DNA of 64,000 nucleotides from Campylobacter sp. VBCF_01 NA2 (GTDB lineage: Bacteria; Campylobacterota; Campylobacteria; Campylobacterales; Campylobacteraceae). The first letter of the stretch is position 1. Every line of letters begins with the position of its first letter. Shown here piece by piece: positions 12,608 to 58,346 of this stretch. The stretch covers positions 1,541,288 through 1,605,287 of the forward strand of contig NZ_CP115607.1 in NCBI RefSeq assembly GCF_027797205.1, written 5' to 3'. The translations under genes and the position numbers were made by a program. The notes under the pieces were generated by a model, which did not search any database, was not told the DNA's origin, and saw only the letters and a program-made list of their open reading frames with translations.

Positions 12608-13471
12608 ATGAAAAATTTATTTTCATTTATGTTGGCTAGTGCGCTGTGCGCGGTGCTAGCAGGATGTGGTGGCGACGATAGCCAGTCTAGTGCAAATGCT
12701 GGGGGCGAGACCGAGAAACCAGCGCAAGAAGTCGCTCAAAAACCAATCGAGAGATCGGTAGAAAAGCCAAAAGACCCAGCGCTTGAAAAAGCAGAAAAAG
12801 AGGTCGAGGCGATGAGTTTGAAGGATTTTGTCGTTTTGTTCGAAAACGATGGTTGCTTTAAGGTAGATACGAACCAAACCGCCAAACTCGCTTGTGAAGG
12901 CAAATTTGAACCATATGCAAAGGAACTTTATAGTTCACAAAGCAGTCTTAAAAATGGTGCAGATAATGTACTATATTTATATTATGAGTTGGATTTTATA
13001 AATGATTATTTTAAAAAAAATAAAAAGCTAGGCTCTGTTTCGGATATGCTGGCTAGTAAGTCAAATATATCAGATATTAACAAAAACATATGGCGAAGGG
13101 CTGGTGTTATATTTATTAATGGGTATGGTAAGTATCTAATCATACGAGATAGTGATATCGATGTTGAAAATTCTACAATTACGCTTTCTGAAATGGACCA
13201 AGATATATACGATAAAGTTGATAAAATAAGTAAAGACTTGGGAGACACATATTTCATCACTTCAGATCATTATTTCTCTAATTTTCACAACAAAAAGCTT
13301 GCTCGCGAGGCCGAATTAAAGGATATATACCGAGAGTTAGCCTATGAAAAAGGCGAGCTAAAAGGTGCGGTTTTTGAGATAAAAGATGGTAAATATGTAG
13401 TTAAATTTCCACTTGCAGATGCGATGAAGGCAAATATTAAAAAAGCAAGGCAAATATTAAAAAAGCTATGA
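12608..13471 (+). CDS. Hypothetical lipoprotein
   Basis: Lipobox LAGCGG. RBS aaagga. No recognisable domain. AT-richer than the core. Confidence 0.55.
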   Translation: MKNLFSFMLASALCAVLAGCGGDDSQSSANAGGETEKPAQEVAQKPIERSVEKPKDPALEKAEKEVEAMSLKDFVVLFENDGCFKVDTNQTAKLACEGKFEPYAKELYSSQSSLKNGADNVLYLYYELDFINDYFKKNKKLGSVSDMLASKSNISDINKNIWRRAGVIFINGYGKYLIIRDSDIDVENSTITLSEMDQDIYDKVDKISKDLGDTYFITSDHYFSNFHNKKLAREAELKDIYRELAYEKGELKGAVFEIKDGKYVVKFPLADAMKANIKKARQILKKL

Positions 13472-13632
13472 AAAGGTGAGCACTAGTAAAATAGCTCATA
13501 TAAATTTCACTTTGCAAGCCGTGGTTTAAACTGCGGTTTGCAACTCGTAATAGAAATTTTAAATTTCAAATTGCTTTTATAAATTTTTGAAATTTAAAAT
13601 TTCAACCAAAAGCTATTTTGTGTTGCAGTTTC

Positions 13633-13676
13633 GTAGGGTGGGCATCCTTGCCCGCCCTAAATTAAAATTTTGCCCA
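13633..13676. repeat. Dispersed palindromic repeat family A, copy 3
   Basis: cgtagggtgggcatccttgcccgccctaaattaaaattttgccc. Confidence 0.75.
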
Positions 13677-13792
13677 TATCTTAAAATTTGAAATTTCAGA
13701 CGCAGTATCTACAAAGCAAAATTTAACGAGAGTAAAATTTAAAGAAAAGCAAAATTTGGAAAAATCCAAATTTTGCTAGGAATTTAAAAAGA

Positions 13793-14290
13793 TTAAGGCA
13801 CGAAAATATTCCCACCGGCGCGCGGATTTAGCGGATCGTCGCCGTATTTGTTAGCTCCGTCGGTGCCTTTTAAAATCGTAGAGATAAAAATAAAAATTAT
13901 AAGCCCCACAGCAACAAATAAAAACAGCATAGCCAAAATTCTAATTCCATCAGCAAACATTATCCCAAGCACGCATAAAAGAAAAATTGCGCCAAAATAC
14001 CACCCGCTGATATCTCTATCATGCAGTCTTCTCCACAAAACCGCAAATGATGGCACAAGCAAGCCCAAAGCAACCACGCTAGCTACGATTCCTATGACCT
14101 CTGGGTTGCCGTTTTTGTCAAAGCCCAAAACGATATTTGTGCCAAGCACAGCGTCGATTACGGAGGTTGCGACATTTACTAAAACGCTAAAAAGGTAAAA
14201 CCACCAATATTCGCTTCTGCTAGCCCTGCCAGAAAATGTGGCGTATTTTTGTTTGAGGCAAACGCTAATCGCCTCGCCAAAACTCATCAT
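13793..14290 (-). CDS. DUF805-family inner membrane protein
   Basis: SGRASRSEYWWFYLF motif characteristic of DUF805 (YhaH-like), with several TM helices. Confidence 0.7.
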   Translation of the reverse strand: MMSFGEAISVCLKQKYATFSGRASRSEYWWFYLFSVLVNVATSVIDAVLGTNIVLGFDKNGNPEVIGIVASVVALGLLVPSFAVLWRRLHDRDISGWYFGAIFLLCVLGIMFADGIRILAMLFLFVAVGLIIFIFISTILKGTDGANKYGDDPLNPRAGGNIFVP

Positions 14291-44972: not shown

Positions 44973-45107
44973 AACAAAAGAGATATAAAAATATTGCTTC
45001 AATAAATTCTGTATTTATTACAAATTCCTAAATTTGATAAACTGATTGGTATTATGAAAAAACGGTAGCTAAACCAGCTAAAATTTGCAAATTTAAGCAA
45101 ATTTTAG

Positions 45108-45120
45108 GGGGGGGGGGGGT
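45108..45120 (+). repeat. Homopolymeric G13 tract immediately upstream of a TAGAAT -10-like hexamer (second copy of the same promoter architecture)
   Basis: Sequence tttaGGGGGGGGGGGGGtagaata. Lies 52 bp upstream of the ATG of the 45172 lipoprotein gene. Confidence 0.9.
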
Positions 45121-45171
45121 AGAATACGGAAATTGAATTGTGTCAAATAATTTTATTAAAAAGGATTTTCT

Positions 45172-45609
45172 ATGAAAAAATCATATTTTATTTATGGAGC
45201 AGTCTTATCTTTTGTTTTGGTTGGTTGTAATTATACTCCGCCACCGAAACACTCAGACATATATTTAAATGATGAAGCTAAAAGCGTTTTACTTAGCGAA
45301 GGAACTATGGTAAATTGTCGTGTATTAGGACAGGTTGAAGGTAAAGATGAAAGATATAAAGGAGAATATCCGCCTGCGATTTACACGCAACTTGATGAAA
45401 ATGCAAAAAATGATTTGAGAAACAATGCTTCTGTGTATAATAAACAAGATAGATTGATAAGCGTTAGAATTTTAAATAAAGAAATTCATTGCTTTGACCC
45501 AAGACTTGGCTGGACAAATTGCAGTAGCGCATATATGAAAGCATACCCTAATAGTGCAGTAAAATATGTAAAATATAAAGGTGAAATTTTAGATTGTGGT
45601 GAAAGATAA
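45172..45609 (+). CDS. Hypothetical lipoprotein (145 aa)
   Basis: Lipobox LVGCNY. RBS aaaaaggatttt. Lies downstream of a G13 tract. AT-rich. Confidence 0.55.
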   Translation: MKKSYFIYGAVLSFVLVGCNYTPPPKHSDIYLNDEAKSVLLSEGTMVNCRVLGQVEGKDERYKGEYPPAIYTQLDENAKNDLRNNASVYNKQDRLISVRILNKEIHCFDPRLGWTNCSSAYMKAYPNSAVKYVKYKGEILDCGER

Positions 45610-45737
45610 ATTTAAAAATTTGCGAATTTTTATTTTAGAATTCGCAAATTTACTCTTTTTTTTCATTTAAAACTACATAAAAAATTCCACAAATGCCGAT
45701 TATAGCGACGATTGCGATAAAAACTACTTCGATTATA

Positions 45738-46808
45738 TCAAGGGCGGTCATTTTTGCTTCTTTCTTTGAGTTGTCCGCACGCAGCACTTATGTCAAGCCC
45801 CTTGCTTTGGCGAATCGTGCAGGTTACGCCATGCGCACTGAGATAATCTTGGAATTTCACCATATTTTCGGTGCTTGGGCGCAGATACGGGCTTCCTTCG
45901 TGTGGGTTAAAATATATCAAATTCACCTTTGCTTTTATGCCGTGAAGTAGCTTCACAAGGGTTTTTGCGTCGTTTATGCTATCATTTACGCCGCCCATTA
46001 CGAGATACTCGAACATCACTCGTTTTCGCATATCTATGGGGAAATTTCGCACGGCGTCCATAACCGAAGCTATGTTGTAGGCTTTGTTTATCGGCATTAG
46101 CTTGGCACGAAGCTCATCGGTTACGGCGTGAAGCGAAATGGCAAGTAAAACGCCCAGATCCATTTCACCCAGCTTTTTTATCTGTGTAGCTAGACCGCTC
46201 GTGCTGATAGTCTGACGACGCGGAGCAATCGCTAAGCCGTCATTTTCTTTTAAAATTTGCACAGCTTTTGAGACATTTGCTAGGTTGTCAAGCGGTTCGC
46301 CCATACCCATATATACGACATTGACGCGTCTTTCGTAAGGGATTTGGTTTGCGATTTTTATGTATAAAATTTGCCCGATGATTTCACCTGCTGTGAGATT
46401 TCGCACAAATCCGCCTTTGGCAGTTAGGCAAAACGCACAGCCCATTTTGCAACCTACTTGCGAACTAACGCAGATTGTGTATCTTGCATGGCGTGAAATT
46501 TTGCCGTTTTCATCGGCGACTTCGTCTTTCATAGGAAGCAAAACGCTTTCTATGGTTTTGCCGTCTTTTAGCTCGAAAAGATATTTTTTGCTTCCGTCGA
46601 TACTCTCTTCGCATTTTGCGCATTTTACGGGGTCTAAATAGAAATTTTCGCTTAAATTTGCTCTTAATTCCTTTGGTAAATTTAGCATTTCATCGAAATT
46701 TTTAACACCTTTTTTGTAAATCCACTCGTAAATTTGCTTGGCTCTAAATTTTGGCGTTACAAGCTCGGATAGTTCATCAAGTGTGAAATCTAGGATATTT
46801 TTCAAATT
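45738..46808 (-). CDS. rlmN: 23S rRNA/tRNA adenine-C2 methyltransferase RlmN (radical SAM)
   Basis: CxxxCxxC radical-SAM motif (CKMGCAFC) and a downstream catalytic Cys. The six-frame ORF is over-extended at the N-terminus. A likely TTG start (LKNILDF...) is preceded by aaaaggaat. Confidence 0.8.
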
Positions 46809-48159: not shown

Positions 48160-48963
48160 ATGATAGTTGCAAAGAAAAAATTCGGACAAAATTTTTTAAA
48201 AGATAGTTTGATTTTAGACAAAATTATCCAATCGATTCCCAAAAATGCTGAAAATATCGTAGAAATTGGGCCTGGCTTGGGTGATTTAACTCGTAATCTT
48301 TTAAAGAGTTATAAAGTAAAAAGTTTCGAAATTGATAATGATTTATATCAGATTTTGTGCCAAAATTTCGCCACAGAGATAAAAAACCGCGATTTGGAGC
48401 TGGTTTTGGGCGATGTTTTGGAAATTTGGGAAAATTCTCTTAGCGAAAAACCATATTTTTTGGTTGCGAATTTGCCGTATTATATCGCGACAAATATAAT
48501 CCTGCGAGCCATTGAAGACCCGCTGTGTGAGGGTTTGGTCGTAATGGTGCAAAAAGAGGTAGCGCAGAAATTTTGCGCAGTTTCTGGGAAGCGGGAATTC
48601 GGCGCGATTTCGGTTTTGGCTAGCCTTTGTGGCGGGGCGCAGTATCTTTTCGAGGTGCCTCCACACGCTTTCGAGCCAGCTCCGAAGGTCATTTCAGCCG
48701 TGATGAGGATAGAAAAGACGCGCAATCCTTTCCAAAGCGTGGAGCAAAAGCGTGAATTTGAGGCGTTTTTGAGAGTGTGTTTTGCCTCTCCTAGAAAAAC
48801 ACTAGCCAAAAATCTAAGCGCAATCGCGTCCAAATCAGATATAACCCAAATTTTCGAAGAACTAGAAATTTTTGAAAACACAAGACCGCACGAGTTAAAT
48901 TTCGCCTTATTTTTAGATATTTTTAAAAAATTAAAGGTGAAAAATGGAAGAGAAAAAAACTAA
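48160..48963 (+). CDS. rsmA: 16S rRNA (adenine1518/1519-N6)-dimethyltransferase
   Basis: KKKFGQNFL start, VVEIGPGLGDLT SAM motif and NLPY motif. Confidence 0.9.
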   Translation: MIVAKKKFGQNFLKDSLILDKIIQSIPKNAENIVEIGPGLGDLTRNLLKSYKVKSFEIDNDLYQILCQNFATEIKNRDLELVLGDVLEIWENSLSEKPYFLVANLPYYIATNIILRAIEDPLCEGLVVMVQKEVAQKFCAVSGKREFGAISVLASLCGGAQYLFEVPPHAFEPAPKVISAVMRIEKTRNPFQSVEQKREFEAFLRVCFASPRKTLAKNLSAIASKSDITQIFEELEIFENTRPHELNFALFLDIFKKLKVKNGREKN

Positions 48964-50998
48964 CAACCAAGCGCAAAACTCTGATTTTACAGGCCCTGAG
49001 CGCTTAAAAAAGGTAAATAGACGCCGCAGACACAGGGAAAATTTAAAAAAATCGTTTGATGAGAGCAAAAATCAAAAAGACGAGCAAAAAACCCCAGCAA
49101 ACGAAAACAAAAAAAATAAAAAATCAAAAAGCGAAAAAGCGCAAAATCTATCCAGCGAAACAGCCGCGCAAAGCCCAAATTCAGAGGAGGGCGCCAAAAA
49201 GAAAAAACGCTCCAAACGCAAAACAAATATGCCAAAAAGCCTAACCGGTACCGAGCCGTGGCATGTGGCTATGGACGAGGCAATCGCAGCGAATAAGGCC
49301 ATGCACGAAGCAAGGCTCTATCCACTAAAAAATGCGAATTCTAGTGAAACTATCCGCATAACTCCGCTTGGCGGACTTGGCGAGATTGGCGCGAATATGA
49401 CGATTTTCGAGACCGCTACGAGCGCGATTATCGTCGATGTGGGTATGAGTTTCCCTGATGATAATATGCCCGGCGTGGATATTTTGATCCCTGATTTTAG
49501 CTATGTTCGCAAGATCGCTGATAAAGTCAAAGGTATCATCATCACGCACGCGCACGAGGATCACATTGGCGCAATGCCGTATTTTTTCAAGGAATTTCAA
49601 TTCCCAATCTACGCTACGCCGTTGCCTTTGGGTATGATTTCAAACAAATTTGAAGAGCACGGCTTAAAGGCGGAGCGAAGCTATTTCCGTCCGGTGCAAA
49701 AGCGCAAAATTTACAAAATCGGCGATTTTGAGGTCGAATTTATCCACATAACACACTCGATTATCGACGCTAGCGCGCTTGCGATTACAACAAAGGCTGG
49801 CACGATTATCCACACGGGCGATTTTAAAATCGACCACACCCCAATCGACGGCTATCCGACCGATTTAAACCGCTTGGCGCATTATGGCGATCGTGGCGTA
49901 ATGCTACTGATGAGCGATAGCACGAATTCTCACAGAGACGGCATTACCAAATCCGAAAATTCGGTAGGCAGGACATTTGACGGCATTTTTGCTAGCTCGA
50001 AAGGGCGCGTGATTATGAGCACATTTAGCTCAAATATCCACCGCGTCTATCAGGCGATTGAGCGCGGTGTGAAATACGGCCGCAAGGTCTGCGTGATAGG
50101 GCGAAGTATGGAGCGAAACCTATTTACAGCAATGGAGCTAGGCTATGTCGAGCTTGATCGTAAAATTTTCATCGATCCAGATGAGGTCAGCAAATACCCT
50201 GACAATGAGGTTTTAATCGTAACCACAGGCTCTCAGGGCGAGACTATGAGCGCGCTATATCGCATGGCCACAGACGAGCATAAATATATAAAAATCAAAC
50301 CCACAGATCAAGTCATCATCTCGGCAAAAGCAATCCCTGGTAACGAAAACAGCGTCTCAACCGTGCTAAATTTCTTACTAAAAAGTGGCGCAAAGGTGGC
50401 GTATCAGGATTTCAGCGAAATCCATGTCAGCGGACACGCTGCCCAAGAGGAGCAAAAACTAATGCTTCGCCTAATCAAGCCGAAATTTTTCCTGCCTGTT
50501 CATGGCGAGTATAACCACATAGTCAAACACCGCGAAACTGCGATAGAATGCGGGATTGATGAGAAAAATATCTATTTGATGAACGACGGCGATCAAATGG
50601 AGATTTGCGAAAAATACCTAAAACGAGTCAAAACCGTCAAAACTGGCAAGGTTTTCATTGACAATCAAATCAATAAGCAAATTTCCGATGAAATCGTAAA
50701 ACACAGGCAAAATTTGGCCGACGCTGGCGTGGCTGTAATCATCGCTCAAATCGACAAAACAGCCAAAAAGCTTATCAAATCTCGCGTCATTACCTACGGG
50801 CTTGTCGCAGAGTCGCAGACATCTGCCTTTACCAAGGATATGGAGGGCTTAATCGAGCAGTTTTTGGCAAATATGAAAACCGAAATTTTGCTTGATAACC
50901 GCGTGTTAGAGTCGCAAATCCGCCAAGCCGTGCGAAAGCATATTTTTAGAAAAACGAAAAAATATCCGACAATCGTGCCGGTTATTTACCTAATGTAA
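48944..50998 (+). CDS. rnj: Ribonuclease J with Lys-rich N-terminal extension
   Basis: Metallo-beta-lactamase motif (HAHEDHIGA), beta-CASP and C-terminal domains. An N-terminal low-complexity K/E-rich extension of about 130 aa resembles that of epsilonproteobacterial RNase J. Confidence 0.85.
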   Translation: MEEKKTNNQAQNSDFTGPERLKKVNRRRRHRENLKKSFDESKNQKDEQKTPANENKKNKKSKSEKAQNLSSETAAQSPNSEEGAKKKKRSKRKTNMPKSLTGTEPWHVAMDEAIAANKAMHEARLYPLKNANSSETIRITPLGGLGEIGANMTIFETATSAIIVDVGMSFPDDNMPGVDILIPDFSYVRKIADKVKGIIITHAHEDHIGAMPYFFKEFQFPIYATPLPLGMISNKFEEHGLKAERSYFRPVQKRKIYKIGDFEVEFIHITHSIIDASALAITTKAGTIIHTGDFKIDHTPIDGYPTDLNRLAHYGDRGVMLLMSDSTNSHRDGITKSENSVGRTFDGIFASSKGRVIMSTFSSNIHRVYQAIERGVKYGRKVCVIGRSMERNLFTAMELGYVELDRKIFIDPDEVSKYPDNEVLIVTTGSQGETMSALYRMATDEHKYIKIKPTDQVIISAKAIPGNENSVSTVLNFLLKSGAKVAYQDFSEIHVSGHAAQEEQKLMLRLIKPKFFLPVHGEYNHIVKHRETAIECGIDEKNIYLMNDGDQMEICEKYLKRVKTVKTGKVFIDNQINKQISDEIVKHRQNLADAGVAVIIAQIDKTAKKLIKSRVITYGLVAESQTSAFTKDMEGLIEQFLANMKTEILLDNRVLESQIRQAVRKHIFRKTKKYPTIVPVIYLM

Positions 50999-51970: not shown

Positions 51971-52741
51971 ATGGAAAAAATGCGTTTAAATAAATTTATC
52001 TCGCACAACACAGGCTATTCGCGCCGTGAAGCCGACGAGCTAATCAAAAACGGCAAAGTTAGCATAAATGGGCGAGTTGTTAGTGAGTTTGTCGAAGTTA
52101 GCGGCGAAGAGAAAATTCGCATAAATGGGCGAATAATCAAGAAAAAAACCGAATTTAGCGTAATTGTCTATCACAAACCAAAGGGTGAGTTAGTCACCAA
52201 AAAAGACGACCGCGGTCGCAAGACGATTTATGACAGCTTGCCAAACGGATTTTCTAAATTTGTTAGTATCGGACGGCTGGATTTTGCTAGTGAAGGGCTT
52301 TTGCTATTAACTGACGCCCCTGCGATCGCCACGGCTCTGATGAAAAGTGACATCGAAAGGGAATACTACCTAAAAGTCAAAGGCGAAGTAACTGATGAGG
52401 TCGTAACGGCGATAAAAGAGGGCTTTTACGCGGACGACGCCACCAAGGGCGCACATGCTAAAAGCAAAATCAAATCAATGGAGTTTAAGCCGTTTTTGGC
52501 GTATCGCATAATGCCAAGCAGCGGCGGCTACACCAAAATCAAAGCTATCATAAACGAAGGGCAAAACAGAGAGTTAAGGCGGTTTTTTGGGTATTTTGAT
52601 CTAGAAGTGGTGGATCTTAAACGCACGGCATTTGGGCGAGTTACGCTGGGAACTTTGAAGCCGGGCAAATGGCGATATTTGGATAGTAGCGAGTATGATG
52701 ACCTGCGAGACTTTTTGAAGCAAGAAAAGGTTTATTATTAA
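51971..52741 (+). CDS. RsuA/RluB-family pseudouridine synthase with N-terminal S4 domain
   Basis: S4 motif (RLNKFISHNTGYSRREADELIKNGKV) and catalytic GRLDFASEGLLLLT motif. Confidence 0.85.
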   Translation: MEKMRLNKFISHNTGYSRREADELIKNGKVSINGRVVSEFVEVSGEEKIRINGRIIKKKTEFSVIVYHKPKGELVTKKDDRGRKTIYDSLPNGFSKFVSIGRLDFASEGLLLLTDAPAIATALMKSDIEREYYLKVKGEVTDEVVTAIKEGFYADDATKGAHAKSKIKSMEFKPFLAYRIMPSSGGYTKIKAIINEGQNRELRRFFGYFDLEVVDLKRTAFGRVTLGTLKPGKWRYLDSSEYDDLRDFLKQEKVYY

Positions 52742-52750
52742 GAGCGTAAA

Positions 52751-53929
52751 ATGATTATTATAGATATTGAAGAAATTGATTTTCAAGAAATTTTAAATCA
52801 AATTTCATCTTATTCAGACGATGCGTTTAAACTAGCATTACAAAATATTTTTAATAAAAAAATATCAAAAGTAATTGAAAAACAAGTAGATTGTTTTGAT
52901 ATTGTTGTTAATACATATATTAGTTCTGAAATTTCATTTGCTGATATAAAAAAGGTTGGCGGCTTACCCATTGATGACATAAAAATATTTTTTAAAAGAA
53001 AAGATATAGATAGCCTAGTAGATATAAATTTCCCCAATGAATATAAAAGTGGTTTTTATGTCAAACAGGATAAAAAAATTTTGTATATTGAGCCTATGCC
53101 TTATAAAATAGAGCCAATAGTTCAAAAACGAGCAATAAAATATAAAAAGCAAATACAAAATATTATTATTCCAAGCGAAAAATTTATTATAAATTCAAAT
53201 ATTATTAAAAATTGTTTATGTGAATATAAAAATATTTTTCCTATTTTTAAATCTTGTGTTAGAGAATATACTATGTGGTATTGTTGCATTTGTGGAAAAG
53301 AATACATTTGTTCTTGTTTTAAAAATGCAATACAAATAATGCAAAAAAAATTTATTGGTGGCTCTATTACACAAAATTTAAAATATGATTTACAAAAGAC
53401 TACTTTTATGGATAATATTTGTCATATGTGTAGAAAAATTCCATCTTCCCATATTTTTTATCTATATGGTGGCAAAATTGGAAAATATTATCTTCCATAT
53501 ATTATGCGTGAGCAATATGAAAAAAATATTGATTATAAAGAAGCAGAAAATAATATTAGAGTAGAATTGGGTATTCCTAAGATTGGCGAAGGTTGGGTTT
53601 CTCAAACACAACTTTACTACACGATTAACTTTTTGTTTCCAGAATATGAAATTCAACGAGAAGCTAGTCCAGAGTGGCTTGGGCGACAAAGATACGATAT
53701 ATATTTTCCAAATGAAAAACTTGCAATAGAATATCAAGGAAAACAACACTATGAGCCTGTAAATTTATTCGGCGGAGAAGAGGGCTATAAAAACACAATA
53801 GAAAGAGACAAAGAAAAATTAAAAAAATCAAAAGAAAATGGTGTCGATATTATATACATATCATACAAGGATAAATTCGATGAAAATACGCTATATAAAC
53901 GCATAAAAAAATATTTGGAAAATAAATAA
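52751..53929 (+). CDS. Cys-rich protein with C-terminal DUF559/Vsr-like PD-(D/E)xK endonuclease motif (AT-rich islet gene 1)
   Basis: Central Cys cluster (CLCEYKN..C..WYCCICGKEYICSC...CHMC). C-terminal D-x-YFP...KLAIEYQGKQHYEP pattern matching the DUF559/Vsr-like endonuclease core. Very AT-rich codon usage. Confidence 0.6.
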   Translation: MIIIDIEEIDFQEILNQISSYSDDAFKLALQNIFNKKISKVIEKQVDCFDIVVNTYISSEISFADIKKVGGLPIDDIKIFFKRKDIDSLVDINFPNEYKSGFYVKQDKKILYIEPMPYKIEPIVQKRAIKYKKQIQNIIIPSEKFIINSNIIKNCLCEYKNIFPIFKSCVREYTMWYCCICGKEYICSCFKNAIQIMQKKFIGGSITQNLKYDLQKTTFMDNICHMCRKIPSSHIFYLYGGKIGKYYLPYIMREQYEKNIDYKEAENNIRVELGIPKIGEGWVSQTQLYYTINFLFPEYEIQREASPEWLGRQRYDIYFPNEKLAIEYQGKQHYEPVNLFGGEEGYKNTIERDKEKLKKSKENGVDIIYISYKDKFDENTLYKRIKKYLENK

Positions 53930-55182
53930 TGGAATTAGCAATATTCTCGCTTAAATTTAGTTTTATATTTGGAATAAATGGCAACAGTGATAAACCATTT
54001 TGTGATTTCGTCAAAATTTTTGAATTAAAAATAGATAAAGAAAATAGAATTGTTGAATTAATTAGAGAACAGACATATAGTAAGGAATTAAAAAATAAAT
54101 TAAGCATTTTTAGAGACAAGTATGTAGAACAAATACCACGACTGCACCAATTGGTTCAAATTTTTCAAAAATTAGAAGAAAATGAATTATTTTATGTATA
54201 TTCTAGAACAGAATTTGATACATTTGATACGGCTAAAATAATTGAACTCACAAAAGAACTCAACTTGGCTAATAATAATAATTCTTGTGAAGTTATACCA
54301 AAAGAATGCGAAAATATCGTAAAAAATTATAATATGATTATTTTTTGTTTTAATGAAAATAGAAAAATCAAAATAGGACATGGCTTAAAAAAAGATAGAG
54401 TTTGCAGGTTTTGTGGTAAAAAATATGGCGAAACTACTTTTAATTCCGAAGCTCACGCAATATCAGAAGCTCTTGGAAATAAAAAATTAATTATAAACGA
54501 TGAGTGTGATGAGTGTAACAAATTTTTTGATAAAAATATAGAAAAAGATTTTATTATATTTAATGATTTTTTTAGAGTATTTTATGAAATAGAAAATAAA
54601 AAACATAAAACACCAAATATTAAAAATAATGAATTTAATTTATCAAATAAAGGCGATAATAACATTTTTATTAGTGTAAAAGATAATTTTGACGGCAATA
54701 ATTTACATTTGCATTTTGGAAATGGAAAGCCGCAAAATTTATATAAAGCATTATGTAAATTTGCAATAAGCGTAATAGATGAAAAATATTTATATAATTT
54801 GCAAGAAACCATACAATGGATTATGGGCAAAAAAGAAACAAAAAAACTTCCAAAAGTAATCGAAATTTTTAATCCTTACAATGTTGTAAAAGAGCCTAAT
54901 ATAGTTGTTTTTATTAGAAAAAACAATAGTGATTTACCTTTTATGTTTGCCACGCTGTCTTTTACTGCTATTGCATATACTTTTATAATACCTTTTTCAA
55001 ACAAAGATAAATTGGATTATACAATCGAAAATAATTATAGTAAATTTTTAAATTTATTGCCTTTTTCTGAAAACAAAAATATAAAATTTCGCGATTTTTC
55101 TAGTAATGAAGAACAAGAATTTAATACAAATATAAATTTTGAGCAAAGAAAAATCGATGAAAATCACAAATTTAAGGCTTAG
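53929..55182 (+). CDS. Zinc-finger protein with HNH-like nuclease motif (AT-rich islet gene 2)
   Basis: CRFCGKKYGETTFNSEAHAISEALGN...NDECDECN. A CxxC-H-N-CxxC arrangement resembling the HNH beta-beta-alpha-Me finger. Start overlaps the gene 1 stop (TAATG). Confidence 0.55.
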   Translation: MELAIFSLKFSFIFGINGNSDKPFCDFVKIFELKIDKENRIVELIREQTYSKELKNKLSIFRDKYVEQIPRLHQLVQIFQKLEENELFYVYSRTEFDTFDTAKIIELTKELNLANNNNSCEVIPKECENIVKNYNMIIFCFNENRKIKIGHGLKKDRVCRFCGKKYGETTFNSEAHAISEALGNKKLIINDECDECNKFFDKNIEKDFIIFNDFFRVFYEIENKKHKTPNIKNNEFNLSNKGDNNIFISVKDNFDGNNLHLHFGNGKPQNLYKALCKFAISVIDEKYLYNLQETIQWIMGKKETKKLPKVIEIFNPYNVVKEPNIVVFIRKNNSDLPFMFATLSFTAIAYTFIIPFSNKDKLDYTIENNYSKFLNLLPFSENKNIKFRDFSSNEEQEFNTNINFEQRKIDENHKFKA

Positions 55183-55184
55183 AA

Positions 55185-55676
55185 ATGTCCAAAAAAATCG
55201 AAAAAACAAACGCTTGTCGCATACTTGACGGGCTTAAAATTCAGTATGAAATTTTAGAATACGAAGTAGATGAAAACAACCTTGACGCTGTGCATGTGGC
55301 AAATTCGTGCCAAAAGCCTATCGAGCAGGTCTATAAAACGATAGTTTGCGAGTGCGGAAATGAATATATCACGGCGTGTTTGCAAGGCGATTTAAACCTT
55401 GATTTAAAGGCGTTAGCTAGAATTGCGAAAGTCAAACGCGCCGAACTAATGAACTTAAAAGAGCTAACAAAAATCACAGGTTATGTTAGGGGCGGTTGTT
55501 CGCCGCTTGGCATGAAAAAGCACTTTCGCACATTTATCGACTCACGCGCACTAACACAAACGCAAATTTGCGTTAGCGCAGGAGTGCGGGGCAAACAAAT
55601 TTGGCTAAATCCAAACGATTTAGCGACCGCGACAAAAGCTGAATTTGGCGAATTCGCCGTGAAATTAGAAGGCTAA
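55185..55676 (+). CDS. ybaK: Cys-tRNA(Pro)/Cys-tRNA(Cys) deacylase YbaK
   Basis: YbaK/ProX editing-domain motifs (TNACRILD..., GYVRGGCSPLGMKK). Confidence 0.8.
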   Translation: MSKKIEKTNACRILDGLKIQYEILEYEVDENNLDAVHVANSCQKPIEQVYKTIVCECGNEYITACLQGDLNLDLKALARIAKVKRAELMNLKELTKITGYVRGGCSPLGMKKHFRTFIDSRALTQTQICVSAGVRGKQIWLNPNDLATATKAEFGEFAVKLEG

Positions 55677-55720: not shown

Positions 55721-56674
55721 CTAAGAGCGCATTTCGTTTAGCAAAGCCGTAATCTTTGGCTCTTCGCTTGCTTTGATTTCGCTAGTGGCGAAGGGAGCGA
55801 GATTTCGCGCGATTTCTATCATCATATTTATGCTTAAAATCACATTTGCGTTTTGGTTCGTGTCTATGCGAGTAAAGAGCGTGTCGTTCGAAACCGCGAT
55901 AAATACGGAGTTGCTCACAGCGTGCATTTGCACTGGGGAGTTTAGGCTAATGCTGATGAGTTCGAGTGTGGTTAGGATTTTGCCGTCTTTTAAAACCTCG
56001 CTGTCAAAATTCTCGCCAGCGTAAATGTCGAAAATATCGGACTTGGCGATATTTGCCTTTTGGAGTTTGAGGTGCGGGGTTTGGAGCATAAACTCACCCT
56101 TGCCAATTGCCGAAAAATCGCTAGCAAAGGCGAGCGGATAGTCAAATTTCGCTATAAATCCAGTGTAAATTTTGCCGTCATTTATGCGCCCCCACTCGAA
56201 TTTATCGAGCCCTAACAAACTTTTTTTTCGTTTGTTAGTGCGCGTTAGCGCAGCATCGCCAAATTTAGCCTCGATTTCACCTATTTTGCCTACTAGTGAT
56301 CGTTTGCAAACGCATGTGTTAGCGTCTTTTTTAATCGGAAGCGAGCTTAAATCCTCTAAAAAAAATGCGCCAAAGGGCTTAAAAGTAAGCCCAGTTTCCT
56401 TGGCGATCCAAAGCAAAATTTCATTATCAAACGCCTTGTCGAGCAGAGCTGAGAAGTGCTGTTTTTGGTTTTTGTCAAAATACGAGTGCGCCAAAATCCC
56501 GCAAATCCCAATCAAACAGCCCAAAATGATTTTAAATTTCAGCGAATATCCGCCACTTAAAATCAAAAACGCCAGCGCACAAACCATGCAAACGACGATA
56601 ATTAGCCGTTTTTTCGCGCTCGCTTCATTTTCTAAAATCGTCTTTTTTTTCAGCTCAAACGATACTATACTCAT
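55721..56674 (-). CDS. DUF3137-like membrane protein (LemA-associated), paralog 1
   Basis: N-terminal double TM. About 310 aa. Paralogous to the next gene. Lies downstream of lemA in the same orientation. Confidence 0.5.
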   Translation of the reverse strand: MSIVSFELKKKTILENEASAKKRLIIVVCMVCALAFLILSGGYSLKFKIILGCLIGICGILAHSYFDKNQKQHFSALLDKAFDNEILLWIAKETGLTFKPFGAFFLEDLSSLPIKKDANTCVCKRSLVGKIGEIEAKFGDAALTRTNKRKKSLLGLDKFEWGRINDGKIYTGFIAKFDYPLAFASDFSAIGKGEFMLQTPHLKLQKANIAKSDIFDIYAGENFDSEVLKDGKILTTLELISISLNSPVQMHAVSNSVFIAVSNDTLFTRIDTNQNANVILSINMMIEIARNLAPFATSEIKASEEPKITALLNEMRS

Positions 56675-57594
56675 ATTTTCTCCACAAATGCTTTTTGATT
56701 ATTTTTCAAAATTTTAGCCAAAATTTTAAATTTTTCCAACTCCTTTTTTAGCGTGACGGCTGGGGAGTTTTCGCCAAGGAGCGGGTATGAAATATTTGGC
56801 TCGAAGCTGTTTTTACCAAGCGCGATATATAGCCAAATTTTGCCTCCCTCGCACGCTAGGCTAAGCGGGGCTTTGAAATAATCCCTAAGTGCGATTAGCT
56901 GCTCCATAAATTTGGGCGTTAGTATGTAATGCGCGCTGATAGGATCATTTGAGTATGTGCGGAAATACTGCTCAAACTCAGCGTTATCCATACTAACGCG
57001 TTTTAGGTGTGAGTTAGCTCTGGCGTTAGTGTCGATGACATGGAGCGTGGAGGCGAAATTTTGGTTAAATTCGGCTATAAGCGTTATGCCATAAAACAGG
57101 GTTGTTAGTTTGGGCGTTTGTTTTTGGTTAGTGTGTGTTTGTGTTTGTTTGGCGAGGTAAATATCGCAAAACTGCGCCTTCACGCCCTCGATTTCCCCGG
57201 CGAAAAAATCATCGCCTCTATACACGCTAAAACCGCTTTCATAAAACCCGGGCGCGTTAAATTCGGCGAATTCGAAAAATCTCTTGCGCTCGTAGCTTAA
57301 ATTTTCGTCTTTGGCGATTAGGCTTAGGATTTCGTCCTTAAAACGCGCGTTAAAGGGCGTTATAAGCCTAGCGTGCGAAATACTAAAAAACATAAGCGAG
57401 GCAAAAACGCAAATTATGCTAGAAATGAGCAAATCAGGCACAAATCGTAGCAAAATGGGAAGCAGGACGAAAATCAGAGCAAAGGAAGCGACCTTTAAAA
57501 TGCGTAAATTTTTGGCGATTTTTGCGCGCTTTTTTTCTAAAATTTCCAAATTTTGGATAATTTCTTCGTTTTTAAATTTTAAAATTTTTTCCAT
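56671..57594 (-). CDS. DUF3137-like membrane protein (LemA-associated), paralog 2
   Basis: Same architecture as the neighbour. Overlapping start and stop codons. Confidence 0.5.
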   Translation of the reverse strand: MEKILKFKNEEIIQNLEILEKKRAKIAKNLRILKVASFALIFVLLPILLRFVPDLLISSIICVFASLMFFSISHARLITPFNARFKDEILSLIAKDENLSYERKRFFEFAEFNAPGFYESGFSVYRGDDFFAGEIEGVKAQFCDIYLAKQTQTHTNQKQTPKLTTLFYGITLIAEFNQNFASTLHVIDTNARANSHLKRVSMDNAEFEQYFRTYSNDPISAHYILTPKFMEQLIALRDYFKAPLSLACEGGKIWLYIALGKNSFEPNISYPLLGENSPAVTLKKELEKFKILAKILKNNQKAFVEKI

Positions 57595-58154
57595 TATTTT
57601 AGCATTTCTGATAAATTTGGCGCGCGTTTTTCGCTATCATCGGCGGCGAAAAATTCGCTTTTTTTGAAGTGAAAAAAGCTAGCGATGAGGTTTGTGGGAA
57701 ACATTTCGCATGCGTTGTTATACACCATAACTGCGCCGTTGTAAGCGCGTCTAGCTGCGCTGATTTGCTCTTCGACTTCGCTTAGCGTGGCTTGGAGATG
57801 AAGGACATTTTCGTTGGCTTTTAGCTCTGGGTAGTTTTCCACAGCGATTTTTAGCGAGCCAAGAGTGCGCGAGAGTTCGGCGTTTAGGGCGAATTTTTGC
57901 GCGTCGTTTGTGGCGCTCATCGCTTCGCTTCGCAAAGCCGTGATTTTGCTCAATACTTCGCGTTCGTGCGTTAGGTAGGCTTTGACAGAGGCGAGTAAAT
58001 TTGGGATCAAATCGTAGCGTTTTTTAAGCTGTGTATCGACGCTAGAAGCGATATTCGAGACCTGATTTCGTTTGGCGATTAATGAGTTATAAATGCCAAT
58101 AACGGCAAAAATTAAAACTGCAATTATGGTTAAAAAGATAGTTAAAACGCCCAT
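57594..58154 (-). CDS. lemA: LemA-family protein
   Basis: Single N-terminal TM followed by the LemA helical domain (LIAKRNQVSNIASSVDTQLKKRYDLIPNL). ATG at 58154 has RBS aaaggga. The longer ORF to 58274 would overlap a tRNA. Confidence 0.75.
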   Translation of the reverse strand: MGVLTIFLTIIAVLIFAVIGIYNSLIAKRNQVSNIASSVDTQLKKRYDLIPNLLASVKAYLTHEREVLSKITALRSEAMSATNDAQKFALNAELSRTLGSLKIAVENYPELKANENVLHLQATLSEVEEQISAARRAYNGAVMVYNNACEMFPTNLIASFFHFKKSEFFAADDSEKRAPNLSEMLK

Positions 58155-58269
58155 ATTTTCCCTTTGAAAATGAAATTTTGCTATTTTAGCATAAATTATA
58201 TTTAAAATTTTGCGCTTTTTAAATTTTATATAAGTAAAATTTGGATAAACTCCATTTTTCCTACAATGT

Positions 58270-58346
58270 GTCAAGGTAGCTCAGCTGGTTAGAGCGCTGG
58301 TCTCATAAGCCGGAGGTCGAGAGTTCAAGTCTCTCTCTTGACACCA
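58270..58346 (+). tRNA. tRNA with CAT anticodon (elongator Met or lysidine-modified Ile2)
   Basis: gtcaaggtagctcagctggttagagcgctggt cuCAUaa gccgg...gttcaagtctctc tcttgac-a-cca. The anticodon stem lacks the three G-C pairs of an initiator tRNA. Confidence 0.75.

What the first reader, a model, noticed from the sequence alone, without database searches (positions are those of the whole stretch)
52751..55182. Very AT-rich 2.4-kb two-gene islet encoding two distinct nuclease-motif, Cys-rich proteins, inserted seamlessly into a housekeeping operon
The segment between the RsuA/RluB-family pseudouridine synthase gene (ends 52741) and ybaK (starts 55185) has strikingly lower GC than the flanks. Its codon usage is full of AAA/AAT/ATA and its proteins are Ile/Asn/Lys-rich, against roughly 45% GC in the neighbouring genes. 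It carries two overlapping ORFs (TAATG junction) of 392 and 417 aa. Gene 1 combines a central Cys cluster (CLCEYKN...CCICGKEYICSC...CHMC) with a C-terminal D..YFP...KLAIEYQGKQHY motif, which I read as a DUF559/Vsr-like PD-(D/E)xK endonuclease core. Gene 2 carries CRFCGKKYG...EAHAISEALGN...NDECDECN, an HNH-like beta-beta-alpha-metal finger, inside otherwise unrecognisable sequence. There is no integrase, transposase or direct repeat, and no intergenic space on either side (10-nt and 2-nt gaps), so the islet is co-transcribed with kpsF-rluB-ybaK. Two different nuclease folds in a compact horizontally acquired cassette is the architecture of many anti-phage, restriction-like or toxin systems. I cannot match it to a named system from sequence alone, so it is a candidate undescribed defence or selfish nuclease module.
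Basis: partly seen in the sequence, partly recalled or inferred. Interest (0 to 1): 0.85.

Follow-up and report, generated by a model that had tools for sequence, protein, structure and literature searches.

The report
Swappable nuclease-gene slot in Campylobacter
The AT-rich 2.4-kb insert is real, but it is not a two-part system: it holds two unrelated stand-alone DNA-cutting genes sitting in a chromosomal slot where sister strains carry other restriction-type nucleases, so it is most likely ordinary but uncharacterised anti-foreign-DNA cargo.

Summary
Observation confirmed. Two intact ORFs (52751-53929, 392 aa; 53929-55182, 417 aa) fill the space between the rluB stop and the ybaK start. GC is 0.243 against 0.42±0.02 elsewhere (z = -7.6). 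GC3 is 0.16 against 0.40-0.51.

The "two-gene cassette" reading fails. In 80 ORF2-family loci and 160 ORF1-family loci the two families never co-occur, and neither has a conserved partner.

The rluB|ybaK junction is a strain-variable slot. Close relatives carry hrgA there, or an ORF2 orthologue plus the Type IV enzyme Mrr. The ORF2 orthologue shows dN/dS 0.24.

Best reading: two independent, methyltransferase-less, restriction-like or selfish nucleases, exchanged by flank homology and expressed by operon read-through. Function is untested. Moderate interest; new variant of a known kind.

The parts
52742..55184 (+). Strain-variable cargo segment of the rluB|ybaK slot (AT-rich islet)
   Evidence: Homology between the window, L249 and L002 stops right after the rluB stop codon and resumes about 3 nt before the ybaK ATG. 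GC 0.243, z = -7.6.
52751..53929 (+). ORF1, 392 aa: stand-alone Vsr-like/EDxHD nuclease with a zinc module and a variable N-domain
   Evidence: AF2 pLDDT 93.2. No Pfam, NCBIfam or PADLOC family.
52751..53200 (+). ORF1 N-terminal domain (aa 1-150), the most variable part of the family; putative target-recognition domain
   Evidence: 17% mean identity to family members, against 52% in the nuclease domain. Most homologues replace it with unrelated sequence. No significant structural match.
53213..53431 (+). ORF1 Cys-rich double-zinc module (aa 155-227): CxC...CxxC plus CxC...CHxC
   Evidence: C187, C189, C224 and C227 are invariant in 61/61 sequences and H225 in 60/61. C155/C157/C178/C181 are present together in about 43/61 and lost together in the rest.
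53534..53926 (+). ORF1 Vsr-like / EDxHD-type nuclease domain (aa 262-392)
53929..55182 (+). ORF2, 417 aa: stand-alone HNH_5-family nuclease
   Evidence: AF2 pLDDT 89.3. The orthologue in L002 shows dN/dS 0.24.
54403..54552 (+). ORF2 HNH (ββα-Me) finger, aa 159-208: C159xxC162...H176...N184...C193xxC196-N197
   Evidence: PF14279 E 5.6e-8, above the gathering score. All seven residues are invariant in 62/62 sequences.
53929..54363 (+). ORF2 family-specific N-terminal domain (aa 1-145), the fastest-evolving part
54562..55179 (+). ORF2 family-specific C-terminal domain (aa 212-417)
   Evidence: Found in 464 50%-identity clusters out of 1.84 billion. Nearly all are 400-450 aa proteins with the domain at the same position, so it is not seen with other effectors among the best 150 hits listed. 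No PDB match.
51971..52741 (+). Left conserved flank: rluB/rsuA-type pseudouridine synthase
   Evidence: PF00849 + S4. 98-99% aa identity to L002 and L249, dN/dS 0.03.
55185..55676 (+). Right conserved flank: ybaK-type aminoacyl-tRNA editing gene
   Evidence: PF04073. The protein is identical in strains that carry a different cargo.

Best explanation
The islet is the current cargo of a strain-variable 'nuclease slot'. The slot lies exactly between the stop codon of rluB and the start codon of ybaK in this Campylobacter clade.

The cargo is two independent, stand-alone nuclease genes placed side by side, not a two-component system.
- ORF1 = variable N-terminal (presumed target-recognition) domain + Cys8 double-zinc module + Vsr-like 'EDxHD' nuclease of the type used by phage homing endonucleases.
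- ORF2 = family-specific N-domain + CCCC-zinc HNH(N) finger + family-specific C-domain.

Neither gene has a cognate methyltransferase, an immunity gene or a conserved partner. Sister strains hold, at the identical position, hrgA (wHTH + PD-(D/E)xK, the 'restriction-endonuclease-replacing gene') or an ORF2 orthologue followed by the Type IV restriction enzyme Mrr.

Inferred mechanism:
1. Cassettes are exchanged by homologous recombination through the conserved flanks after natural transformation.
2. They are transcribed by read-through from the ksgA-rnj-kpsF-rluB operon.
3. Each protein acts alone as a methyltransferase-independent (Type IV-like) restriction or defence nuclease. It cuts foreign DNA that its variable domain recognises, for example modified or otherwise non-self DNA. 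ORF1 may also retain homing-type selfish behaviour.

Shown: anatomy, folds, conserved catalytic residues, independence of the two families, slot polymorphism, purifying selection on ORF2.
Inferred: recombinational exchange, read-through expression, target class, defence role.
For: - Slot polymorphism. Among 9 contigs with an identical YbaK protein, 4 carry ORF1+ORF2 and 5 carry a single 319-aa gene that NCBI names HrgA. Related Campylobacter contigs carry an ORF2 orthologue (81% by BLASTP local alignment; 79% over full length) plus Mrr, which matches PADLOC mREase_IV at 2e-61.
- Break-points are exact at the rluB stop and the ybaK start. No repeats, integrase or transposase.
- Independence. 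Zero co-occurrence in 80 + 160 loci and no conserved neighbours. The closest ORF1 relatives (55-56%) are followed by other genes.
- Active-looking nucleases. ORF1 E266/D316/H333/D353 are invariant and Q329 is in 60/61. They map onto I-Bth0305I E170/D196/N208/H213/D222 and Vsr E25/D51/H64/H69/D97, on a Vsr-like fold. The ORF2 CCCC + H176/N184/N197 residues are invariant.
- ORF2 is under purifying selection (dN/dS 0.24), with dS (0.435) similar to rluB.
- No methyltransferase family recurs among 142 ORF2-family or 110 ORF1-family neighbours. The neighbours are instead a mix of integrases and resolvases with REases, ApeA, GajB, DpdF, PDC-S05/06, Tiamat, Mokosh, GmrSD_N and DUF4238.
- ORF2 relatives are on 95 plasmids but in only 2 of 50,697 phage records.
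- Homologues of both genes are AT-richer than their host loci wherever sampled.
- Precedent: hrgA/hpyIIIR exchange by homologous recombination and methylase-independence of HrgA in H. pylori (PMC3045609).
Against: - No recognised modified-DNA reader domain (SRA, EVE, YTH, Mrr_N and the like) or any other sensor was found in either protein. The accessory domains have no Pfam hit and no significant structural match. Target choice and self/non-self discrimination are therefore unexplained.
- Neither family is in PADLOC v2, and no experimental paper was found.
- Defence-island association is only qualitative. No enrichment statistic could be computed.
- ORF1's catalytic domain is closest to bona fide homing endonucleases, which favours a selfish reading for that gene.
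- Read-through transcription rests only on the absence of predicted terminators and on tiny gaps.
Confidence: 0.55

Rival explanations
1. Selfish free-standing homing-endonuclease genes. ORF1, and perhaps ORF2, cuts the alternative or empty allele of the rluB|ybaK junction in incoming or sister DNA. Recombinational repair then copies the nuclease gene into the site ('intronless homing'), as with the seg/mob genes of T-even phages.
For: - ORF1's nuclease domain matches phage 'group I intron-associated VSR homing endonuclease', 'intron-encoded nuclease' and free-standing 'homing nuclease' genes. It also matches the I-Bth0305I catalytic-domain structure.
- PHROG hits are annotated as homing or HNH endonuclease.
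- The insertion is exact, between two conserved genes, with mutually exclusive alternative occupants.
- The genes are strongly AT-rich relative to every host sampled.
Against: - Full-length ORF1 relatives sit in many unrelated contexts rather than in one conserved target gene.
- ORF1 lacks the NUMOD/HTH DNA-binding modules of known EDxHD enzymes (PMC3239194).
- ORF2's family is nearly absent from phages.
- The other occupants of the slot are restriction-type proteins (Mrr, HrgA), not homing endonuclease genes.
- The ORF2 orthologue has co-diverged with the flanks (dS similar to rluB), which suggests long residence and not recent invasion.
Confidence: 0.2
2. One reading: ORF1 and ORF2 are the two subunits of a single dual-nuclease defence or toxin system and need each other.
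For: The 1-nt TAATG overlap suggests translational coupling. The two genes are always adjacent in the 4 contigs that carry them. They have the same extreme GC and GC3.
Against: - No ORF1 relative near any of 80 ORF2-family genes, and no ORF2 relative near any of 160 ORF1-family loci.
- The ORF2 orthologue at the same site lacks ORF1 and is still under purifying selection.
- The closest ORF1 relatives lack ORF2.
- The same TAATG overlap joins rluB to the ORF2 orthologue in L002.
- All 4 co-occurrences are identical sequences from one clade.
Confidence: 0.08
3. Sensor-activated abortive-infection nucleases. The accessory domains sense a phage protein or process, and the nuclease then degrades cellular and phage nucleic acid (possibly RNA, as for Vsr-like RAP/FASTKD domains). 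They would not be constitutive restriction enzymes for modified DNA.
For: - No modified-base reader domain is detectable.
- ORF2's N- and C-domains are unique to the family and conserved, as expected for a dedicated sensor.
- Vsr-like effectors have been predicted in CoCoNuT III-B systems thought to target RNA (PMC11090510).
Against: - No NTPase, STAND or other switch module is present.
- The companions in the slot are classic DNA restriction-type proteins.
- The N-domain variability of ORF1 (17% identity) looks more like sequence- or target-specificity swapping.
Confidence: 0.12
4. Inert passenger genes or decaying remnants with no current function.
For: Rare families: 431 hits among 5.8 billion clustered proteins for ORF1, and 464 hits among 1.84 billion cluster representatives for the ORF2 C-domain. 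Sporadic distribution. No own promoter is evident.
Against: Both ORFs are full length relative to their families. All catalytic and zinc ligands are intact. dN/dS is 0.24 for ORF2 between lineages. AF2 models are highly confident.
Confidence: 0.05

Closest known systems
I-Bth0305I / 'EDxHD' (Vsr-like) homing endonucleases, including phage Hef-type and Staphylococcus-phage intron-associated VSR homing endonucleases
   Different: There are no NUMOD/HTH modules. Instead ORF1 has a 260-aa N-terminal region with a variable α/β domain and a Cys8 double-zinc module. It is chromosomal, between housekeeping genes, not in an intron, intein or phage. Homing activity is untested.
E. coli Vsr and DUF559 proteins (e.g. 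NGO0050, PDB 3hrl)
   Different: No match to Pfam DUF559 or to Vsr by HMM. No dcm partner. Gln replaces Vsr His64. Multi-domain architecture.
hrgA / hpyIIIR replacement locus of Helicobacter pylori (HrgA = DUF511, wHTH + PD-(D/E)xK)
   Same: Mutually exclusive nuclease genes occupy one fixed chromosomal position in a naturally competent epsilonproteobacterium. They are exchanged through flank homology and are methylase-independent (PMC3045609). An HrgA homologue is literally one of the alternative cargoes of this slot.
   Different: Here the flanks are housekeeping genes (rluB, ybaK), not an R-M methyltransferase. The cargoes are Vsr-like and HNH nucleases, not HrgA. Exchange was not demonstrated here.
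Type IV (modification-dependent) restriction enzymes such as Mrr and McrA
   Same: Solitary nuclease with an N-terminal accessory domain and no methyltransferase. A bona fide Mrr shares the slot with the ORF2 orthologue. McrA is also a His-Me (HNH) enzyme (PMC5714182).
   Different: No recognised modified-base reader domain. No sequence or structural similarity outside the catalytic cores. Modification dependence is untested.
Pfam HNH_5 (PF14279)
   Same: ORF2 scores above the PF14279 gathering threshold and has the CCCC + H/N/N signature.
   Different: PF14279 covers only about 50 residues (aa 159-208). The remaining roughly 365 residues are unannotated. In the His-Me finger classification of PMC5714182, one group (group 8) is PF14279-only, with 158 bacterial and 0 viral sequences and no characterised member. 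Whether ORF2's family corresponds to that group was not tested.

Membership tests
EDxHD / Vsr-like homing endonuclease family (I-Bth0305I type) | Vsr-like α/β nuclease fold in the catalytic domain | tested here: met
EDxHD / Vsr-like homing endonuclease family (I-Bth0305I type) | Conserved composite catalytic residues E, D, (x), H, D | tested here: met
   E266, D316, H333 and D353 are invariant and Q329 is in 60/61. The mapping follows motif order and the alignment to phage ORF194 and PMC3239194. It was not made by explicit structural superposition.
EDxHD / Vsr-like homing endonuclease family (I-Bth0305I type) | Detectable sequence similarity to recognised members | tested here: met
   tblastn hits to 'group I intron-associated VSR homing endonuclease' and 'homing nuclease' genes in 318 phage records. 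BLASTP E 9e-10 to 0305phi8-36 ORF194.
EDxHD / Vsr-like homing endonuclease family (I-Bth0305I type) | N-terminal NUMOD/HTH DNA-binding modules | tested here: not met
   No Pfam hit at E≤1. The N-terminal 260 aa are a different α/β domain plus a zinc cluster.
EDxHD / Vsr-like homing endonuclease family (I-Bth0305I type) | Residence in an intron or intein, or as a free-standing gene in a phage, with homing into a cognate empty site | not testable with these tools
   The gene is chromosomal, between rluB and ybaK. No intron or Rfam element. Cleavage specificity needs an experiment.
Pfam DUF559 (PF04480) | Match to the family HMM | tested here: not met
   No Pfam family at E≤1 for ORF1. Only fold-level similarity to the DUF559 structure 3hrl.
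HNH / His-Me finger, Pfam HNH_5 (PF14279) | HMM score above the gathering threshold | tested here: met
   33.0 bits against a 27.5 cutoff, E 5.6e-8, aa 159-208. All 120 listed homologues but one carry PF14279.
HNH / His-Me finger, Pfam HNH_5 (PF14279) | Catalytic His, structural Asn, metal-ligand Asn/His and CCCC zinc ligands | tested here: met
   C159, C162, H176, N184, C193, C196 and N197 are invariant in 62/62.
Type II restriction-modification system | Adjacent cognate DNA methyltransferase | tested here: not met
   None in the operon. No methyltransferase family recurs (≥2 members) among 142 and 110 family neighbours.
Type IV (modification-dependent) restriction enzyme | Nuclease without a methyltransferase | tested here: met
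Type IV (modification-dependent) restriction enzyme | Recognisable modified-DNA reader domain (SRA, EVE/YTH/ASCH, Mrr_N, DUF262 and the like) | tested here: not met
Type IV (modification-dependent) restriction enzyme | Cleavage dependent on DNA modification | not testable with these tools
   Requires biochemical or phage assays.
Multi-gene defence system (obligate ORF1+ORF2 pair) | Conserved co-occurrence of the two families across lineages | tested here: not met
   0/80 and 0/160 loci. The pair is seen only in 4 identical contigs of one clade.
Named anti-phage systems (PADLOC-DB v2.0.0) | Match to any system HMM | tested here: not met
   Only noise hits (E 0.008-0.03) for ORF1 and none for ORF2 or its orthologue.
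Self-mobile element (IS, transposon, integrative island) | Integrase or transposase, terminal repeats or target duplication | tested here: not met
   No such genes. Only AT-rich chance repeats. The break-points coincide with the gene ends.

The most novel reading that the evidence does not exclude
ORF1 and ORF2 each found a previously unrecognised family of single-protein, methyltransferase-independent restriction nucleases. Their target-recognition domains have no structural precedent and may be aimed at the hypermodified DNA of Campylobacter phages. The rluB|ybaK junction would be a recombination-driven 'nuclease shuffling' slot in which such enzymes (ORF1, ORF2, Mrr, HrgA) compete or alternate.
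Probability: 0.3. Interest if true: 0.6.

Novelty: new variant of a known kind. Interest (0 to 1): 0.4.

Why it matters
If the two proteins are active, they add two uncharacterised single-gene nuclease families to the set of methyltransferase-less restriction and defence enzymes. One is Vsr/EDxHD-based with a double-zinc module. The other is HNH_5-based with two domains of unknown fold.

They would also give HrgA, long an orphan "restriction-endonuclease-replacing" protein, a clearer context: one of several interchangeable nucleases at a fixed chromosomal slot.

The slot itself is a handy natural experiment on how naturally competent Campylobacterota swap defence cargo by flank homology without any mobility genes. 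It could also be used to mine further candidates.

It does not reveal a new principle. Solitary nucleases in variable hot spots are a familiar theme.

Tried and rejected
- Pfam, NCBIfam, PADLOC and PHROGs on both proteins. Only HNH_5 for ORF2 and function-poor PHROGs were found.
- PDB sequence searches with single sequences and family profiles gave nothing.
- I tested whether the 292-aa gene overlapping an ORF1 homologue (L001) is a diverged ORF2. It is not.
- I looked for conserved neighbours of either family by all-vs-all BLAST clustering. At most 6 loci share any neighbour.
- I looked for flanking repeats, terminators and structured RNAs in the islet. None were found.
- Literature searches for PF14279/HNH_5, the protein accessions, and Vsr-like defence proteins found no study of either family.
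- I considered Cap5-like (HNH + SAVED) and PtuB-like identities for ORF2, from memory. I rejected them because the PDB fold searches returned no significant match of any kind and PADLOC gave no hit.
- An 'empty' rluB-ybaK junction was not found. All three configurations recovered are occupied.
Full report

Yes. Two ORFs lie on the + strand at 52751..53929 (392 aa) and 53929..55182 (417 aa). They are joined by a one-base TAATG stop/start overlap. They fill the space between a pseudouridine-synthase gene (rluB/rsuA type, PF00849+S4, ends 52741) and a ybaK-type tRNA-editing gene (PF04073, starts 55185). The gaps are 9 nt and 2 nt.

The 2,443-bp segment has GC 0.243. All other 2.4-kb windows of the 64-kb window have mean 0.42, sd 0.023 and minimum 0.36, so z = -7.6. 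It contains the lowest 1-kb bins of the window. GC3 is 0.155 and 0.158, against 0.40-0.51 in the five flanking genes.

There are no flanking repeats beyond AT-rich chance matches. There is no integrase or transposase and no Rfam element. No +-strand terminator-like site occurs between kpsF and the end of ybaK. The genes ksgA, rnj, kpsF, rluB, ORF1, ORF2 and ybaK form a same-strand array with gaps of at most 10 nt. Read-through transcription is therefore plausible, but it is inferred and not shown.

**2. ORF1**

No Pfam, NCBIfam or PADLOC family matches. A database search finds 431 relatives among 5.8 billion clustered proteins. Only four besides the query itself (P0001) are similar over the whole length (47-56%). 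Most share the C-terminal two-thirds, and many share only the last ~130 residues, inside proteins of 500-600 aa.

A 61-sequence alignment (A1) shows an identity gradient:
- N-domain: 17%
- Cys cluster: 27%
- linker: 37%
- C-terminal domain: 52%

Invariant residues are C187, C189, C224 and C227 (with H225 in 60/61), and E266, R270, D316, E327, H333, D353 and K356. Q329 is in 60/61. A second Cys set (C155, C157, C178, C181) is present together in about 43/61 sequences and absent together in the rest. This fits two zinc sites, one of them accessory.

- several Vsr-like RAP domains

The paper on I-Bth0305I (PMC3239194) gives the active-site equivalences E170/D196/N208/H213/D222 = Vsr E25/D51/H64/H69/D97. 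The conserved ORF1 residues E266/D316/Q329/H333/D353 follow the same order and similar spacing.

Sequence-level links also exist. tblastn with aa 255-392 hits 318 phage records. These include genes annotated 'group I intron-associated VSR homing endonuclease', 'putative intron-encoded nuclease' and 'homing endonuclease'. BLASTP to the free-standing 'homing nuclease' ORF194 of phage 0305phi8-36 gives E 9e-10 and aligns the D...E-x-(Q/N)-G-x-Q-H...(E)xD motifs.

The domain does not match Pfam DUF559 itself. It is closest to the EDxHD homing-endonuclease branch. The N-terminal 150 residues and the zinc module have no significant structural match.

**3. ORF2**

Pfam HNH_5 (PF14279) matches aa 159-208 above threshold (33 bits against 27.5). 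At least 233 relatives exist. Most of the 120 listed cover 85-98% of the query and are 400-450 aa long, apart from shorter, probably truncated, sequences. All but one carry PF14279.

In a 62-sequence alignment (A2), C159, C162, H176, N184, C193, C196 and N197 are invariant. This is a CCCC-zinc HNH finger of the H-N-N type. Regional identity is 26% in the N-domain, 65% in the HNH region and 36% in the C-domain.

An exhaustive HMMER search with the C-domain alone finds 464 cluster representatives among 1.84 billion. Nearly all are 400-450 aa with the domain at the same position. The architecture is therefore monolithic. Among the best 150 hits listed, the C-domain is not seen attached to other effectors.

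The His-Me-finger classification lists a PF14279-only group with no characterised member and no viral sequences (PMC5714182).

**4. Are the two genes a system?**

No evidence supports this, and several tests go against it.
- I fetched 80 genomic loci encoding ORF2 relatives. I searched all six frames with the ORF1-family profile and found no hit within ±6 kb.
- I fetched 80 viral and 80 metagenomic loci encoding ORF1 relatives. I searched them with the ORF2 profile and found no hit.
- Clustering of neighbours shows no conserved partner for either family. At most 6 loci share any neighbour.
- The closest ORF1 relatives (50-56% identity) are followed by unrelated genes. Two of them are preceded by a divergent Xre/CI-type HTH gene.
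- The ORF1+ORF2 pair is recorded only in four contigs carrying identical sequences from one 'unclassified Campylobacter' clade.

**5. The locus is a strain-variable slot**

Look-ups of the flanking proteins were decisive. Nine contigs encode a YbaK protein identical to the window's. Four have ORF1+ORF2. Five have, at the same place, a single 319-aa gene. NCBI names this gene 'HrgA protein'. Its GC is 0.30, it has a weak HARE-HTH N-terminus, and it shows a visible PD...EMK motif.

Related Campylobacter metagenome contigs (L002-L005) have core proteins 96-99% identical to the window's. They carry, after rluB, an ORF2 orthologue and then an Mrr gene (Mrr_N+Mrr_cat; PADLOC mREase_IV 2e-61), followed by ybaK. 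The orthologue is 81% identical by BLASTP local alignment, or 79% aa and 85% nt over the full length. Its GC is 0.23.

Alignments of the junctions show that similarity between the three configurations ends immediately after the rluB stop codon and resumes about 3 nt before the ybaK ATG. In L002 the ORF2 orthologue's ATG overlaps the rluB stop as TAATG. This is the same arrangement as ORF1/ORF2 in the window, so that overlap is not evidence of functional coupling.

Between the window and L002, the ORF2 orthologues have dN/dS 0.24 (N-domain dN 0.17). Their dS is 0.435, comparable to rluB (0.435). Core genes have dN/dS 0.03-0.09. ORF2 is therefore a functional gene. It has probably resided in the slot since before the two lineages split, while ORF1 and Mrr were added or lost on either side.

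HrgA has a documented history of exactly this behaviour. In H. pylori it replaces the restriction gene hpyIIIR. The two are mutually exclusive and are exchanged by homologous recombination. HrgA (DUF511, wHTH + PD-(D/E)xK) appears to be methylase-independent (PMC3045609).

**6. Wider context of the two families**

Immediate neighbours of ORF2 relatives (142 proteins) are heterogeneous. They include resolvases, integrases and IstB. They also include Type I/II/III restriction subunits, ApeA, GajB, DpdF, PDC-S05/S06, RhuM, AAA_21 and others. No methyltransferase family recurs.

ORF2 relatives occur on 95 plasmids, 77 of them in Acinetobacter, many on large conjugative plasmids. They occur in only 2 of 50,697 phage records and in 6 viral contigs.

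Neighbours of ORF1 relatives (110 proteins) include integrases, HTH/S24 repressors, DUF4238, nSTAND3, patatin, Tiamat, Mokosh and GmrSD_N. On an Aliarcobacter plasmid an ORF1 relative lies next to DUF2971, an HNH endonuclease and a DUF262 protein.

In every host sampled, the homologues are AT-richer than their surroundings.

These patterns fit mobile, accessory, defence-island-type genes. I could not compute an enrichment statistic.

**7. Most likely mechanism**

Shown:
- two intact nucleases with complete catalytic and zinc-ligand sets
- mutual independence of the two families
- no methyltransferase, immunity gene or NTPase
- a polymorphic slot shared with Mrr and HrgA
- purifying selection on ORF2

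Inferred:
- cassettes are exchanged by homologous recombination via the conserved rluB and ybaK flanks in a naturally transformable host
- expression is by operon read-through
- each protein acts alone as a methyltransferase-independent (Type IV-like) restriction or defence nuclease, with target choice residing in its variable accessory domain(s)

The weak point is that no known modified-base reader or sensor fold is detectable. Self/non-self discrimination is therefore unexplained.

For ORF1, a selfish homing-type role is a serious rival, because its catalytic domain is closest to phage homing endonucleases. A sensor-activated abortive nuclease is another possibility. The obligate two-nuclease system is unlikely.

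**8. Novelty and score**

Both catalytic domains are known kinds. The combination of a solitary nuclease with a variable hot spot is familiar.

What is new:
- the ORF1 architecture (variable domain + Cys8 zinc module + EDxHD nuclease)
- the two ORF2 domains with no solved-structure match
- the rluB|ybaK slot with at least three alternative nuclease cargoes, one of them HrgA

Neither family is in PADLOC v2, and neither was found in the searchable literature.

I rate it a new variant of a known kind, with interest about 0.4.

Noticed in passing
L249:4039-4998 (GCA_027737105.1; same position as window 52742-55184): Sister strains with an identical YbaK protein carry a 319-aa HrgA homologue in place of ORF1+ORF2. 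It has a weak HARE-HTH N-terminus, a visible PD...EMK motif and GC 0.30. A 209-nt spacer follows rluB. Current Pfam gave no DUF511 hit for it.
   Followed up: partly
L002:6001-8311 (also L003-L005): In related Campylobacter contigs the same slot holds an ORF2 orthologue followed by a Type IV Mrr gene. The 187-nt spacer between them contains a GC-rich hairpin (GAGACCACGAAGTGGTCGAAG). In L003 the region after ybaK also differs, with extra Excalibur-domain and 278-aa genes.
   Followed up: partly
window 48944-49300 (5' end of the RNase J gene, 48944-50998): RNase J carries a roughly 100-aa Lys/Arg/Asn-rich low-complexity N-terminal extension (AT skew up to 0.52). The homologue in L002 is 820 aa against 684 aa here, so the extension varies in length between close relatives.
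   Followed up: no
L246:115-504 and L247:251-652: The two closest ORF1 relatives (55-56% identity) each have a divergently transcribed Xre/CI-type HTH gene (129-133 aa) immediately upstream. This is reminiscent of a controller or repressor. The window copy has none.
   Followed up: no
L257 (A. baumannii plasmid pD4, NZ_KT779035.1: 47788-49176) and 76 other Acinetobacter plasmids: A 28%-identical full-length ORF2-family 'HNH endonuclease' is widespread on large Acinetobacter plasmids. In pD4 it lies next to an ISAba25 (IS66-like) element and near an H-NS gene.
   Followed up: no
window 55721-58274 (- strand): Convergent with ybaK is a three-gene array: a 317-aa protein with no Pfam match, a 307-aa DUF3137 protein and a LemA-family protein. 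It is followed by tRNA-Met (58270-58346). It is conserved in all slot variants.
   Followed up: no
window 13001-14000 and 45001-46000: Two other moderately low-GC kilobase bins (0.33 and 0.34, against about 0.42). They were not examined.
   Followed up: no
L001:7115-7993: An ORF1 homologue (50% identity) in a 71-kb metagenome contig is overlapped at its 3' end by a 292-aa gene with no Pfam or PADLOC match. This gene is unrelated to ORF2. A BrnT/BrnA toxin-antitoxin pair lies just downstream.
   Followed up: partly
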